The notes under the pieces are model-generated. The model was given only the letters and a program-made list of their open reading frames with translations. It searched no databases and was not told the origin of the DNA. A program made the translations under genes and the position numbers. From Sphaeroforma arctica JP610 (lineage: Eukaryota), in assembly GCF_001186125.1 (NCBI RefSeq), contig NW_014040549.1:230319-271893 (forward strand): a stretch of 41,575 nt of DNA, read 5' to 3'. Positions 6,728-25,288 of the stretch are shown here, in pieces (the first letter of the stretch is position 1; the number at the start of each line of letters is the position of its first letter).

Positions 6728-7117
6728 CTACGCCGTATCCCCTAGTTCACGATGCTCCTCGAATACCCTCCTAAATGCTAGCATCTGTTTCTTACTCTCG
6801 AATTTTAAACGGAATGTGGTTGGTAGACCTCCAGCCTCCTCTTTTGTGTAATTCATTGGCGTTGTCCAACTGAAAGTATTGTTTGCACATATTTTCACAG
6901 GTGAGCATCTTCGCACAAAGTGTTCGGCCACCCGCGGATCGTCGCCTATACACATCCAGAAGCGTGCCTTACCATTGTAGACATCGGGTTGGCTTACTAT
7001 GTATGCAAAATCCTTACCCAGCTCTACAAATTCTTTCGTATCGCTGTCTAGCTGGTAAAGGGTCGCTGTTTTTTTAACCAGATGCTCGGTGCCTTGTAAA
7101 TCCTTAGCCTTGAGTGT
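6728..7117 (-). CDS. Terminal exon of the RanBP2-like gene: divergent RanBD/PH-fold domain
   Basis: Acceptor ctttcag| at 7118, phase 0. Translates [36 protein letters not shown]...[12 protein letters not shown]...[23 protein letters not shown], ending in TAG. Confidence 0.85.
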   Translation of the reverse strand, partial: TLKAKDLQGTEHLVKKTATLYQLDSDTKEFVELGKDFAYIVSQPDVYNGKARFWMCIGDDPRVAEHFVRRCSPVKICANNTFSWTTPMNYTKEEAGGLPTTFRLKFESKKQMLAFRRVFEEHRELGDTA

Positions 7118-10100
7118 CTGAAAGAGGTATTCCAGTGGTTCTGTGAGCCTTCAGATCGCTTATACTTTAATCACCAGGAGTGAGCTTTCTGGGTTAAATT
7201 TCGAACAAATAGCTAAATGAAGTGCCCATATCTCTGCTTTATCACCTACCAGCTCACTTCTTGCGAAATCACAAATTCCGCTTACGCACATATTTCCAGA
7301 AATAACTCATACGCATTTTAACTGCAATACTCTTTCGACTCACACACGTATACCCTGATTGAAAATAGACTAGCAACAAGGTAAGCAAGTGTATCTTCTT
7401 AAGTGTATGCATTGCAGCCAGCTGCCTAGTTTAAAACATGAATTTCTTGCACCGAAAATAGCAAGATATACACAAAATCACCTATAGACCCGAGTTATTG
7501 AAATAAGTACCTTGGATTTGTACGATTTGCAAACTTACCTCCTTTAAGTATTCTTCCTCATCATCGTCACGAGAATCGCTCTCTTTGTCATCGTAGTCAG
7601 ATTGCACGTTAGTCTTGAAGTTCCTATCAGAGCTGCTGTTTATGAACGAAGCCTTGAAGGATTCCAGTATATCCGCGCGTGGGAAGTCTATTCGATACGT
7701 TGCCTTGCCTTTCGTATCATCAGTGAAACAACTGAGTCTCAGACTGTTTTTTTGGGCGTCCTGGGCATCGATTACCTCCACCTTCTCATTGTTCGTAAAT
7801 TTTACGAGCACGCGCTCGCCCGACGATCCAGTGAAGTACTGCTGCCCGTTGCTGCAATCTAATTTTACCTTCACGACACCTTCGTCCCCAGCTGTGCGTG
7901 TCGCTTCCTCATTCCGAGATGTAACATTTACCCATTGGTCATCTGCAAAAACATACAGCTTCGCATTTTCACAACAAAATTCTCTCTCCGAATCCTCCAA
8001 ATTTTCCACCACGTTGCCTTTATCCACATTCGCATTTACCACTGACTCTTCAGCGACGGACACAATTGCAACATCAGCACCTGGCGCAACCTCCATATCA
8101 CTTTTCCCATCCACAGGCGCACTCACTACCGGCTCCTGCACAACATCCATGCCCTCATCCCCCCTATTCAAATCCTTCTCGACTTCCTCGTTTGGTTGTA
8201 CATTTTGTGCCGGAACATCCGCATCAGAGTTCTCGGTTTGCTCGTTGTCTACGCCAATTGAAGCGCCACTCCCCGCTTGCGTAACCGAATCTTCTGTAGC
8301 GTCTTCCTCCGCCATACCAGTTTTTGAAGTATCATCACGGGGACTCTGAGTAGAGGTTTCCGTCTCCTTCTCAACACTTCGGTCTTCCTGTGCACCTTCA
8401 TCCTCCGTCTCCCTATGCTTTCCACCACCATAACCCTGGACATTGTTGCTATCCTTCTGGCCCTCACCGCTTTTTTCCTGAGGACTCTCCAAGGCATCTA
8501 TTACGCTGTCACCACCACTCGCTGACATTTTGGAGGCACCCGTAACACTCTCCTCGAACTTTGCCTTGAACTCTGCTGCGGCCTCGTCAGTTTTGAAGCG
8601 TATTTTAAATATCTCTTTGGTGCACACGCCGTCCACGAAATCATTAGGTGTCACCCACGAGAACACACGCTCATTGGTATCGAGCTTCAGTTCCATATTA
8701 CTAATGATACGATGGTTAGACGATATTTTTAGTGTTTTATCTCTCCTGAGCAAGAACCGCACGGCACCACTCTGCTTGTGCTTCAACAACTTCGCAGGAC
8801 CCGTGCCCCTCTCCTTCCACTGATCATCGACAAATCTGTAGAGTCTTGCCCTCACCTCAAACAACACATCCTCGTCATCCTCTCCAGTTTCAACTGCCAC
8901 TTCTTCCAGCGTCACAATTGGTTCGAAGTGCACATCGGGCTCGTCTTCCAACTGTGATACCTTATCATCCGCAACACCACCACTTGTCCCAATACTCTTC
9001 TGATCGCTACCTGTAGCAGTAGAAGCACCAGTATTACCAAACAACGGTTGCGGTACCGATGCTAGCTCGTTACTTGACCCGCCAAAACCAAAACCGGATT
9101 TAGGAAGTGTACTATTGAACATACCGAAGTTTGGCTTTGTGAATGGATCAGCGCCAGGCATAGGCTTCCCAAAGGTGACCTTCGTGGGCGGATTGACAGA
9201 TCCCGTCGAATTCGATACAGATCCTGCATTTGTGTTGATGGACAGAGCCGGTTCACCTTGAACGCCAAAGTTGGGTTTAAATTGAGGTGTGCCGTTCGAT
9301 GCAGACGTTTCAGGTGTGTCTTTTTTAGTGGCACCGTCTCCGTTCAGCGTGCTATTGGTTACAATTGAGCTATTGTCGCCATCAACCGTAACGGACTTGC
9401 ACTCCCCCGCTGGATTTGCAGCTGTCCTTTCAATTACATTATCTTCCTCCGATTCTTTTACGGAAAGTCCTGCGCTTTCTCCCTTCGCAGCTGCCTCAAA
9501 CACTTGCCTGAACCTGTCCATCTGTTCTTCCGTCTTGAGTCGCATACTGAACATACGTCGTTGAGGTTCTCCTTCATCGGATGCGTCCATTGGTGCTATC
9601 CAGTACGCAGCCGCAGGATTATCAGCGGGTTTAATAGCAAGCCCCTCTGGTATCGTATGATTAGCACATATTTTATGCGTCGCTTCGCGACGCATCAGGA
9701 ACCTGACCGCCCCCGTGCTACGATGTCTCAGCATTCTAGCGATGCCCACCCCTCGTTCTTTCCACGCACCCTCCACTTTCATATGCAATTTGGCCCTTTC
9801 CAAGAACAAAACGTCTTCGTCTTCCTCACCAGTCTGAGTCTCTACTTCCTTCAGCGTCACAACAGGCTCGAAGTACACGTCAGGCTCCGCCTCGACATCA
9901 TCGGTATTGCCCGACACCACTGCCAGTGTCTCCTGTGACTTTGCACCATTCTGGTTGGTTGTCACTGGGACACCAAATACGGGCTGCGGTGCTGTACTGA
10001 ATCCCTTAGAGGCACCTCCAAAATGTATGCCGTCGGTTGTGGGTGCCGGAATTCCAAAACTAAATGTCGAGACAGGGACCTTTTTGATCTCGGCAACTGG

Positions 10101-25100: not shown

Positions 25101-25288
25101 GCCACTGTTTGGGATGTGGCTAAAATTCTGTGTTCACACGACTGAGCAATCTACATAGAATGCATACCAAAACTGTTGAAGTTCAAAGTATACGTATTCC
25201 GTATCGCTCTCAAGGCTCTGAAAATCTTTCTCTTCTGAGCCGTGTCCAGTTGTATACGTGAAGAGCCCACACTTGTCGGAGTAGCCAT
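6728..25288 (-). CDS. Nup358/RanBP2-like multidomain protein (LRR - polyQ - about 9 RanBD - FG motifs - 2 RanBP2-type zinc fingers), 12 coding exons, about 3095 aa
   Basis: Exons on the minus strand: 25288-25168, 24708-24670, 24581-24258, 23697-23560, 22661-22560, 22178-21904, 20545-19942, 19200-19043, 16673-16289, 14877-14798, 14210-7539, 7117-6728. All junctions are GT-AG with compatible phases; total 9288 nt. The first RanBD is reconstituted across exons 9-11 (RIFVWKT|NRDQ...[20 protein letters not shown]). The two most 5' exons are less certain. Confidence 0.8.
7539..14210 (-). CDS. 6.7-kb exon of the RanBP2-like gene: six canonical RanBDs, one divergent RanBD/PH-like domain, two RanBP2-type zinc fingers, FG-rich linkers
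   Basis: Repeated EPDVxFEP...[19 protein letters not shown]...WKERGTG...LRRD.T.KI.SNH motif at about 13340-13750, 12420-12830, 11465-11878, 10405-10821, 9490-9903 and 8545-8950. Divergent domain ([14 protein letters not shown]) at about 7640-7990. WxCxxCxxxNxxxxxxCxxC fingers at about 12200-12275 and 10110-10190. Acceptor atcgcag| at 14211, donor |gtaagt at 7538. Confidence 0.95.
11080..11168 (-). repeat. Coding 21-bp tandem repeat x4 (FG repeat GST[A/V]P[V/A/I]F)
   Basis: ccaaat(a/g)(t/c)aggt(g/a)c(a/t)gtacta repeated four times on the + strand. Confidence 0.95.
15016..15140. repeat. AT-rich intronic tandem repeat, about 40-44 bp x3
   Basis: gtaatgtaaaataa(t/a)aatatatacctatatata...gttt repeated. 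Confidence 0.9.
16870..18020. repeat. Intronic minisatellite, about 23-bp unit (cacattactcatatgaagagaca), with a 370-bp higher-order duplication
   Basis: Dozens of degenerate units; the block at about 17325-17560 recurs almost identically at about 17695-17930. Confidence 0.95.
16922..17047. mobile_element. Candidate 126-bp MITE with 13-bp terminal inverted repeats CACTGGTGGAGGG
   Basis: cactggtggaggg at 16922 and ccctccaccagtg ending at 17047; interrupts the minisatellite; no clear TSD. Confidence 0.55.
18575..19042. repeat. Intronic tandem repeat of about 48 bp (about 10 copies) starting at a splice donor
   Basis: Minus-strand unit gtgagtgctgtgtttgtatttatcatgttagacgtagattttgtattt; the first copy begins at the exon-8 donor GT (19042). 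Confidence 0.9.
19942..20545 (-). CDS. Glutamine-rich (polyQ, coiled-coil-prone) exon of the RanBP2-like gene
   Basis: Open frame [17 protein letters not shown]...[15 protein letters not shown]...SPFGP between acceptor ttctgtag| and donor |gtagag. Confidence 0.85.
21094..21219. repeat. 59-bp direct repeat x2 (period 67)
   Basis: gtgtgttagcaatggatc(c/a)cactttcgatagatcgatggtgtagattgtacacagattg at 21094 and 21161. Confidence 0.95.
22560..24581 (-). CDS. Leucine-rich-repeat exons of the RanBP2-like gene (24581-24258, 23697-23560, 22661-22560)
   Basis: [66 protein letters not shown], then a cap-like VRLHDNPF...VRKYLR. All three exons are phase 1/1. Confidence 0.85.
24860..25060. repeat. Long (TA)n microsatellite block
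   Basis: Directly visible; explains the spurious YIYI ORFs. Confidence 0.97.

What the first reader, a model, noticed from the sequence alone, without database searches (positions are those of the whole stretch)
6728..25288. Nup358/RanBP2-like giant with a non-animal architecture: true LRRs, polyQ, about 9 RanBDs, no cyclophilin
Seen: 12 phase-compatible exons give about 3095 aa with N-terminal 23-residue-type LRRs, a polyQ region, 6 canonical and 3 divergent RanBD/PH-like domains, FG motifs and only 2 isolated RanBP2 zinc fingers. The protein ends in a divergent RanBD. Established: Nup358/RanBP2 is regarded as metazoan-specific; the human protein has an N-terminal alpha-solenoid, 4 RanBDs, a cluster of 8 zinc fingers, a SUMO E3 region and a C-terminal cyclophilin domain. 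Inference: the neighbouring fungal-like gene suggests a non-animal host, so this may be a pre-metazoan relative or a convergently built Ran-handling platform of the nuclear pore.
Basis: partly seen in the sequence, partly recalled or inferred. Interest (0 to 1): 0.78.

Follow-up and report, generated by a model that had tools for sequence, protein, structure and literature searches.

The report
Nup358-like giant with swapped anchor domain
A single-celled relative of animals (Sphaeroforma arctica) transcribes a 3070-residue protein built like the animal nuclear-pore protein Nup358, but it has leucine-rich repeats where the pore-anchoring domain should be, so it is likely a rewired Nup358 predicted to dismantle nuclear export complexes from a different, still unknown anchor.

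Summary
The gene is real. It is Sphaeroforma arctica SARC_00336 (Ichthyosporea). RNA-type contigs from two studies join the LRR, Q-rich and first divergent Ran-binding-domain (RanBD) exons. They also correct the model: one exon was missed and one acceptor moves, giving 3070 aa. The last two junctions were not seen in RNA. Confirmed parts: 6 canonical RanBDs, 3 divergent RanBD/PH-like domains (one weak), 2 zinc fingers, 40 FG, 4-5 SHOC2-type LRRs. There is no cyclophilin, no SUMO-E3 region and no Nup358 N-terminal solenoid (NTD). Much of the 'non-animal architecture' is ordinary invertebrate Nup358. Unicellular Nup358 candidates are already listed in a 2024 supplement. What remains unusual is the N-terminus. 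The ichthyosporean Chromosphaera keeps a true Nup358 NTD (E 2e-39 to an animal-only profile); this protein has LRRs and a Q-rich tract there. The RanBD tree cannot separate orthology from convergence (AU p 0.22-0.41). Best reading (0.55): a derived Nup358 that swapped its pore anchor. No genome was held, so a separate NTD gene is not excluded.

The parts
25168..25288 (-). Exon 1 coding part (aa 1-40); the transcript contigs reach about 25463
   Evidence: Loose end and contig offsets
24258..24470 (-). Exon 2, LRR 1-2
23560..23697 (-). Exon 3, LRR 3-4
22560..22661 (-). Exon 4, capping LRR
21904..22178 (-). Exon 5, unassigned domain of about 90 aa; faint likeness to the C-terminal half of a RanBD
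   Evidence: 4.3 bits against shuffle max 3.0, hhalign probability 5%; Atlas uninformative
20958..21065 (-).
   Evidence: Joint 21065/21904 in 3 of 4 runs; downstream joint to 20511 in 3 of 4, with X11 joining at 20535
19942..20512 (-). Exon 7, Q-rich tract (aa 320-484, 73 Q of 165)
19043..19200 (-). Exon 8, S/T/N linker
16289..16673 (-). Exon 9, acidic stretch and start of divergent RanBD0 (aa 602-724, no WKERG)
14798..14877 (-). Exon 10, RanBD0 continued
   Evidence: Loose end at 16289 in X5 matches this exon
7539..14210 (-). Exon 11 (6672 nt): six canonical RanBDs, two zinc fingers, FG linkers, divergent PH-like domain
   Evidence: both splice sites from RefSeq and frame, not seen in RNA here
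13341..13742 (-). RanBD1
   Evidence: 145 bits; 127 bits to RanBP1, 91-117 to single RanBP2 RanBD constructs, 24 to Nup50
12420..12821 (-). RanBD2
12210..12269 (-). Zinc finger 1, 51 aa after RanBD2
11466..11867 (-). RanBD3
10410..10811 (-). RanBD4
10125..10184 (-). Zinc finger 2, 76 aa after RanBD4
9489..9893 (-). RanBD5, the most divergent canonical copy (53% to its nearest sibling)
8547..8948 (-). RanBD6
7632..8009 (-). Divergent PH/EVH1-like domain (weak)
6728..7117 (-). Exon 12, terminal divergent RanBD and stop codon
   Evidence: Yeast RanBP1 E 0.008 over 117 aa; hhalign 96%

Best explanation
SARC_00336 is one transcribed gene that is likely a derived Nup358/RanBP2 orthologue whose pore-anchoring N-terminal solenoid has been replaced by a short LRR module and a Q-rich tract, and it is predicted to work as a multivalent Ran and transport-receptor platform on the cytoplasmic side of the nuclear envelope. 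Shown: the gene structure (all but the last two junctions), the domain content, and the absence of NTD, SUMO-E3 region and cyclophilin. Inferred from family knowledge: FG patches catch exportins and importins leaving the pore; the six canonical RanBDs bind their Ran-GTP and release cargo; the zinc fingers hold Ran-GDP; with no IR region, hydrolysis would rely on soluble RanGAP. Guessed: the LRRs bind a new anchor, the Q-rich tract oligomerises or condenses in place of the Nup358 oligomerisation element, and the three domains without WKERG bind Ran weakly or not at all.
For: One contig spans LRR, Q-rich and RanBD0 exons in two studies. Nup358 with an NTD existed in the ichthyosporean lineage: an animal-only NTD profile hits Chromosphaera P0004 at E 2.3e-39 and unnamed P0031 at 4.7e-41, and P0004 ends with the LPxxFYxY..C motif seen in animal Nup358. 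The layout matches: N-terminal domain, low-complexity tract, then RanBDs spaced by FG linkers, with a single zinc finger within 100 aa after a RanBD as in 108 of 113 finger-bearing hits. All six RanBDs have a 4-residue loop before WKERG, found in 62 of 464 domains of the other search-1 hits (mostly animal Nup358) but 2 of 118 short RanBP1-type hits. The zinc fingers score up to 42.6 bits against a mollusc Nup358. Both trees place the S. arctica RanBDs in or next to animal Nup358 domains, without starred support. Shah et al. list two S. arctica ids as Nup358/RanBP2 and score Nup133 and Nup160 absent there but present in Chromosphaera, which fits a remodelled docking site. LRR exons are more conserved than a linker exon in organism D: 6 of 296 against 15 of 158 nt differ, p 0.0006.
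Against: No Nup358-defining part outside generic modules is kept: NTD, oligomerisation element and IR motif give no hit. The six RanBDs form their own clade (97/94; five copies are 76-85% identical), so the array was rebuilt within the lineage. The AU test rejects neither grouping with RanBP1 (p 0.309), with Chromosphaera-type domains (p 0.221) nor with all holozoan Nup358 (p 0.405). RanBD1 scores higher to RanBP1 than to any RanBP2 domain, and its best single-domain hits after its own duplicate are plant and fungal RanBP1. Chromosphaera has the long loop in every RanBD and no zinc finger, so those two shared characters skip the closest true Nup358. An unrelated C2-domain protein (P0002) also has 7 RanBDs, FG motifs and the short loop, so such platforms arise more than once. 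LRR conservation against exon 5 is not significant (p 0.10). No orthologue with LRR plus RanBD was seen outside near-identical organisms. Localisation and binding are untested.
Confidence: 0.55

Rival explanations
1. A convergent platform: Nup358 was lost in this lineage, and an LRR gene captured a RanBP1-type domain that was then amplified in tandem with FG linkers and a zinc finger. It would do the same Ran chemistry, perhaps off the pore.
For: The RanBDs are monophyletic and young. RanBP1 gives the top scores. Grouping with RanBP1 is not rejected, p 0.309. P0002 shows an independent multi-RanBD FG protein whose domains form a separate 100/100 clade. The RanBD2-finger module has been copied again as SARC_15107.
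Against: It needs loss of Nup358 and re-invention of the RanBD-zinc finger-FG order. RanBP1 evolves slowly, so high scores are expected. The free trees put the domains nearer animal Nup358 than RanBP1, though weakly. No ichthyosporean RanBP1 was retrieved for a fair test.
Confidence: 0.25
2. A paralogue: S. arctica keeps a normal NTD-bearing Nup358 (or a separate NTD gene) elsewhere, and this LRR form is an added specialised copy.
For: Shah et al. give two S. arctica ids. No genome was available to exclude it. The NTD search was too insensitive to count: 5 hits, only 3 of them animal.
Against: Two RanBD searches (1241-3952 aa, best 120 of 1052; 30-1240 aa, best 120 of 839) showed only one other S. 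arctica protein, SARC_15107, a degenerate partial copy of this gene that may be the second id (the match to that id is my inference).
Confidence: 0.15
3. A chimeric gene model: the LRR-Q-RanBD0 part and the large RanBD exon are two genes.
For: Junction 14798/14210 was not seen in RNA here. The 426-536 nt of contig beyond exon 10 would also fit inside the 587-nt intron.
Against: The splice is canonical GT-AG, in frame, completes the final helix of RanBD0 and is in RefSeq. Reading into the intron stops after about 20 codons (sequence).
Confidence: 0.04

Closest known systems
Animal Nup358/RanBP2, invertebrate type (Hydra P0016, Oculina P0008, Limulus P0010)
   Same: About 3000 aa; RanBP1/RanBP2-class RanBDs spaced by FG linkers; single zinc fingers just after RanBDs; no cyclophilin in the named invertebrate hits.
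   Different: No TPR/alpha-solenoid NTD, oligomerisation element or IR1-M/LPxxF motif; LRRs instead; Q content before the first canonical RanBD is 26% against a median of 6%; RanBDs homogenised; three decayed PH-like copies.
Chromosphaera perkinsii Nk52_evm14s273 (P0004), listed as Nup358 by Shah et al. 2024
   Same: Ichthyosporean, 3047 aa, 5 RanBDs, 31 FG, no cyclophilin.
   Different: It keeps the full NTD and the LPxxFYxY motif, has no zinc finger and no LRR, and its RanBDs do not group with the S. arctica ones in the free tree.
RanBP1/Yrb1
   Same: Same RanBD class with N-terminal extension and WKERG; highest single-domain scores.
   Different: One domain, about 200 aa, no FG array, finger or LRR.
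Nup50/Nup2 and RanBP3/Yrb2
   Same: FG motifs plus a RanBD.
   Different: Other RanBD class: 24 and 33 bits against 127 for RanBP1; a single domain.
RanGAP
   Same: Carries LRRs and works with RanBDs.
   Different: The LRRs here match SHOC2/LRRD1-type repeats; no RanGAP among the best 60 of 254 PDB hits; only 4-5 repeats. Not a RanGAP fusion.

Membership tests
Nup358/RanBP2 | N-terminal TPR/alpha-solenoid NTD (about 750 aa) that docks on the outer ring | tested here: not met
   Animal NTD profile: no hit in the model; an NTD profile gave nothing below E 0.8 in six frames of the window; the animal profile hits 94 of 129 proteins, Chromosphaera included
Nup358/RanBP2 | Several RanBP1/RanBP2-class RanBDs | tested here: met
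   Six at 126-151 bits with WKERG
Nup358/RanBP2 | RanBP2-type C4 zinc fingers | tested here: met
   Two, each after a RanBD; Pfam PF00641 did not list them at E 0.05
Nup358/RanBP2 | FG motifs in disordered linkers | tested here: met
   40 FG, 3 FxFG
Nup358/RanBP2 | Oligomerisation element after the NTD | tested here: inconclusive
   A profile from 88 animal segments found nothing in the model but also failed on Chromosphaera
Nup358/RanBP2 | IR1-M SUMO E3 region or its LPxxF lead-in motif | tested here: not met
   No PF12185; motif absent here, present in Chromosphaera and 5 of 7 animals checked
Nup358/RanBP2 | C-terminal cyclophilin (vertebrate trait) | tested here: not met
   Absent, but also absent from 78 of 120 hits, so it does not define the family
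Nup358/RanBP2 | RanBDs group with Nup358 and not with RanBP1 | tested here: inconclusive
   AU p 0.405, 0.221 and 0.309 for the three groupings
Nup358/RanBP2 | [quoted passage not shown] | not testable with these tools
   Needs imaging
RanGAP fusion | RanGAP-type LRR domain | tested here: not met
   SHOC2-type hits, 4-5 repeats
Nup50/Nup2 or RanBP3 | RanBD of that class | tested here: not met
   24-33 bits against 91-127

The most novel reading that the evidence does not exclude
Nup358 predates animals, and in the closed-mitosis, multinucleate Sphaeroforma lineage it lost its outer-ring anchor along with outer-ring parts reported missing (Nup133, Nup160). It gained an LRR that tethers it to a new partner, possibly the link between pores and the cytoplasmic microtubules along which S. 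arctica pores form radial arrays. That would be a natural anchor-swap experiment on the largest nucleoporin.
Probability: 0.2. Interest if true: 0.8.

Novelty: new variant of a known kind. Interest (0 to 1): 0.55.

Why it matters
Structural work treats Nup358 as an animal addition held on the pore by its N-terminal solenoid. Here one ichthyosporean (Chromosphaera, open mitosis) has the animal-type NTD and another (Sphaeroforma, closed mitosis) has an LRR in its place. Both are cultured and imaged for nuclear pores, so two questions become testable: when Nup358 arose, and whether a RanBD-FG platform needs the NTD to act at the pore. The Chromosphaera NTD result stands whichever origin holds for the S. 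arctica gene.

Tried and rejected
No genome is held for the window, so a second NTD gene could not be sought directly. No RNA evidence was obtained for 6300-15000, so the last two junctions stay unverified. The N-terminal 294 aa against 1.84 billion representatives gave only generic multi-LRR proteins: 0 of 149 non-self hits carry a RanBD and none matches beyond residue 199; a weaker orthologue would fall below the listing cut of 127 bits. The Chromosphaera NTD word search found 5 proteins, too insensitive to show absence. AlphaFold of the N-terminus without alignment (pLDDT 38) and of the weak PH-like domain on a RanBD alignment (pLDDT 46, biased by my alignment; no Foldseek match at E 0.001) are not used as evidence. 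Atlas for exon 5: hypothetical bacterial clusters at 0.90, uninformative. A metagenome scan gave 7 loci at 35-46% identity, none a close relative. The first tree (66 of 112 domains, LG+G4) nested S. arctica within animals; the mixture model (51 of 112) moved it out, so nesting is rejected as unstable. RanGAP fusion and Nup50/RanBP3 identity were rejected. Three look-ups in earlier findings returned nothing. No complex was predicted: no Ran sequence was held and RanBD-Ran is a textbook pair. The 'fungal-like neighbour' was not confirmed: the ORF at 4137-4424 has no Pfam hit, and the host was identified from the gene itself.
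Full report
Gene and host. The large reading frame at 7482-14258 is 100% identical over the searched region to Sphaeroforma arctica SARC_00336 (P0001, XP_014161473). The host is an ichthyosporean, a unicellular relative of animals. No genome was held for the window.

Transcript. Contigs of four runs, RNA by the tool's guess, were laid on 15650-24850. 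One contig in X5 and one in X7, from two studies, run through exons 2-9 without a mismatch and skip GT-AG introns. Loose ends in X5 match exon 1 and exon 10. So the LRR exons, the Q-rich exon and the first divergent RanBD share a transcript. The corrected model has 12 exons and 3070 aa. Junctions 14798/14210 and 7539/7117 were not seen in RNA; they are canonical, in frame and in RefSeq, and the first completes a RanBD helix. Organism D (X11, mostly 95-99% alike) shows five of the same joints at or near the same places, so the layout is shared by at least one close relative.

Anatomy. Residues 41-192 hold four LRRs plus a capping repeat, closest to SHOC2/LRRD1-type repeats and not RanGAP. Residues 193-290 are unassigned, with a faint likeness to half a RanBD. 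Residues 320-484 are 44% Q with no run above 5. Then come a divergent RanBD (602-724), six canonical RanBDs with WKERG and the N-terminal extension, two zinc fingers 51 and 76 aa after RanBD2 and RanBD4, 40 FG motifs, a weak PH/EVH1-like domain and a terminal divergent RanBD. NTD, IR1-M and cyclophilin are absent.

What is and is not unusual. Among the best 120 of 1052 hits, 21 have at least five RanBDs, 29 have at most two fingers and 78 lack a cyclophilin motif. None of 28 named invertebrate hits shows PF00160 (my count; the set is biased by RanBD score and length). These traits are ordinary outside vertebrates. The unusual part is the N-terminus. An NTD profile built from 20 animal proteins hits 94 of 129 proteins, including Chromosphaera P0004 (E 2.3e-39) and unnamed P0031 (4.7e-41), and gives no hit here. 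Chromosphaera also keeps the LPxxFYxY motif. A true Nup358 therefore exists outside animals, and the S. arctica protein lacks its hallmark.

Origin. The six RanBDs are one clade (97/94) and five are 76-85% identical to each other, so the array was amplified or homogenised in this lineage. A simple model nests them in animal Nup358 (66 of 112 domains). The mixture model puts them outside the animal clade in an unresolved opisthokont group (51 of 112, bootstrap not settled). AU tests reject none of three groupings: with RanBP1 p 0.309, with Chromosphaera-type domains p 0.221, with all holozoan Nup358 p 0.405. For orthology: the RanBD-finger-FG order (108 of 113 finger-bearing hits), the short loop before WKERG (6 of 6 here, 62 of 464 in other hits, 2 of 118 in RanBP1-type), and parsimony given Chromosphaera. 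Against: Chromosphaera has neither fingers nor the short loop, RanBP1 scores highest, and P0002 shows an independent multi-RanBD FG protein. The only other S. arctica protein seen is SARC_15107, a degenerate partial copy of the RanBD2-finger module.

How it likely works. Human Nup358 RanBDs bind Ran-GTP, its fingers prefer Ran-GDP, and five NTD copies per spoke wrap the Y-complex stalks at NUP96, NUP107 and NUP93 (Bley et al., bioRxiv 10.1101/2021.10.26.465790; sections 8 and 9 and passages read). FG patches bind Crm1 and the RanBDs release cargo (Ritterhoff et al., PMC4866044; passages). By analogy this protein would catch transport receptors on its FG linkers and strip Ran-GTP with six RanBDs, using soluble RanGAP because it has no IR region. 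It cannot dock as human Nup358 does. The LRRs are the candidate anchor and the Q-rich tract the candidate oligomeriser. All of this is inference; nothing was tested biochemically.

What is in print. Bley et al. call NUP358 metazoan-specific. Shah et al. 2024 (PMC11153136; passages, and parts 1-2 of 3 of supplementary file 2 read) list putative Nup358/RanBP2 orthologues in two choanoflagellates, S. arctica (two ids), Ichthyophonus, Amoebidium, Chromosphaera (our P0004) and Corallochytrium. The same row gives a fungal entry too, so its orthology bar looks loose. Their main text has no word starting 'Nup' or 'RanBP'. They report closed mitosis, truncated ELYS and radial pore arrays along microtubules in S. 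arctica, open mitosis in Chromosphaera, and score Nup133 and Nup160 absent in S. arctica. Grau-Bove et al. (PMC4327156; passages) treat IR1-M as animal. I could not map the Sarc4 ids to this gene, and their sequence files were not among the supplements held. Searches for Nup358 with Sphaeroforma and for the gene ids found 0 papers; seven broader searches showed none on this architecture in their listings. The library lacks most subscription papers, and bioRxiv supplements are closed. PMC3198171 and PMC13180977 were seen as passages only and add nothing decisive.

Verdict. The protein works like a Nup358-type Ran platform by inference, but it fails the NTD and IR tests, so it is not filed as an ordinary member. 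It is a new variant, more likely a derived orthologue (0.55) than a convergent build (0.25) or a paralogue (0.15). Interest 0.55: the pre-animal presence is half known, the anchor swap appears undescribed, and its origin is open.

Noticed in passing
P0004 (Chromosphaera perkinsii) and unnamed P0031: Both carry a full Nup358 NTD (E 2e-39 and 5e-41 to an animal-only profile): direct sequence evidence that the NTD is not animal-specific.
   Followed up: partly
window 25781-31683 (+): A frameshifted Ty1/copia-type retroelement (RVT_2 hits at 30241-30888) lies head to head about 300 nt from the inferred transcript start near 25463. No LTR pair was found in 25060-33500.
   Followed up: partly
window 18576-19043 (-): The donor of intron 8 sits at the edge of a 48-nt tandem repeat that holds 8 more GTGAGT copies; all four runs use only the first.
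   Followed up: partly
P0279 (SARC_15107): Degenerate partial duplicate of the RanBD2-finger module of this gene on a 1.9-kb contig; it may be the second S. arctica Nup358 id in Shah et al.
   Followed up: partly
P0076 (Neocalanus flemingeri), and P0040, P0054, P0071, P0078, P0081, P0083: Nup358-like proteins with internal LRR_6 and PF27087 hits between RanBDs; possibly a RanGAP fused into Nup358 (my guess, untested).
   Followed up: no
P0002 (unnamed EukProt protein): C2-like N-terminus, 7 RanBDs, GLF/FG repeats and a finger-like motif; its RanBDs form their own 100/100 clade: an apparently independent multi-RanBD platform.
   Followed up: partly
L006:131-3334: Compact 1067-aa Nup358-like protein: TPR part only, two RanBDs and an IR1-M-like motif; L004 holds a near copy.
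   Followed up: no
P0278 (unnamed ENA protein): RING/TRAF zinc-finger N-terminus fused to three RanBDs and a RanBP2 finger: another N-terminal swap on a Nup358-type body.
   Followed up: no
window 23108-23300: X11 has a 223-nt contig within intron 3 that the other three runs lack; unexplained.
   Followed up: no
window 4137-4427 (+) and 33837-34979 (-): Neighbouring reading frames with no Pfam hit at E 0.05.
   Followed up: partly
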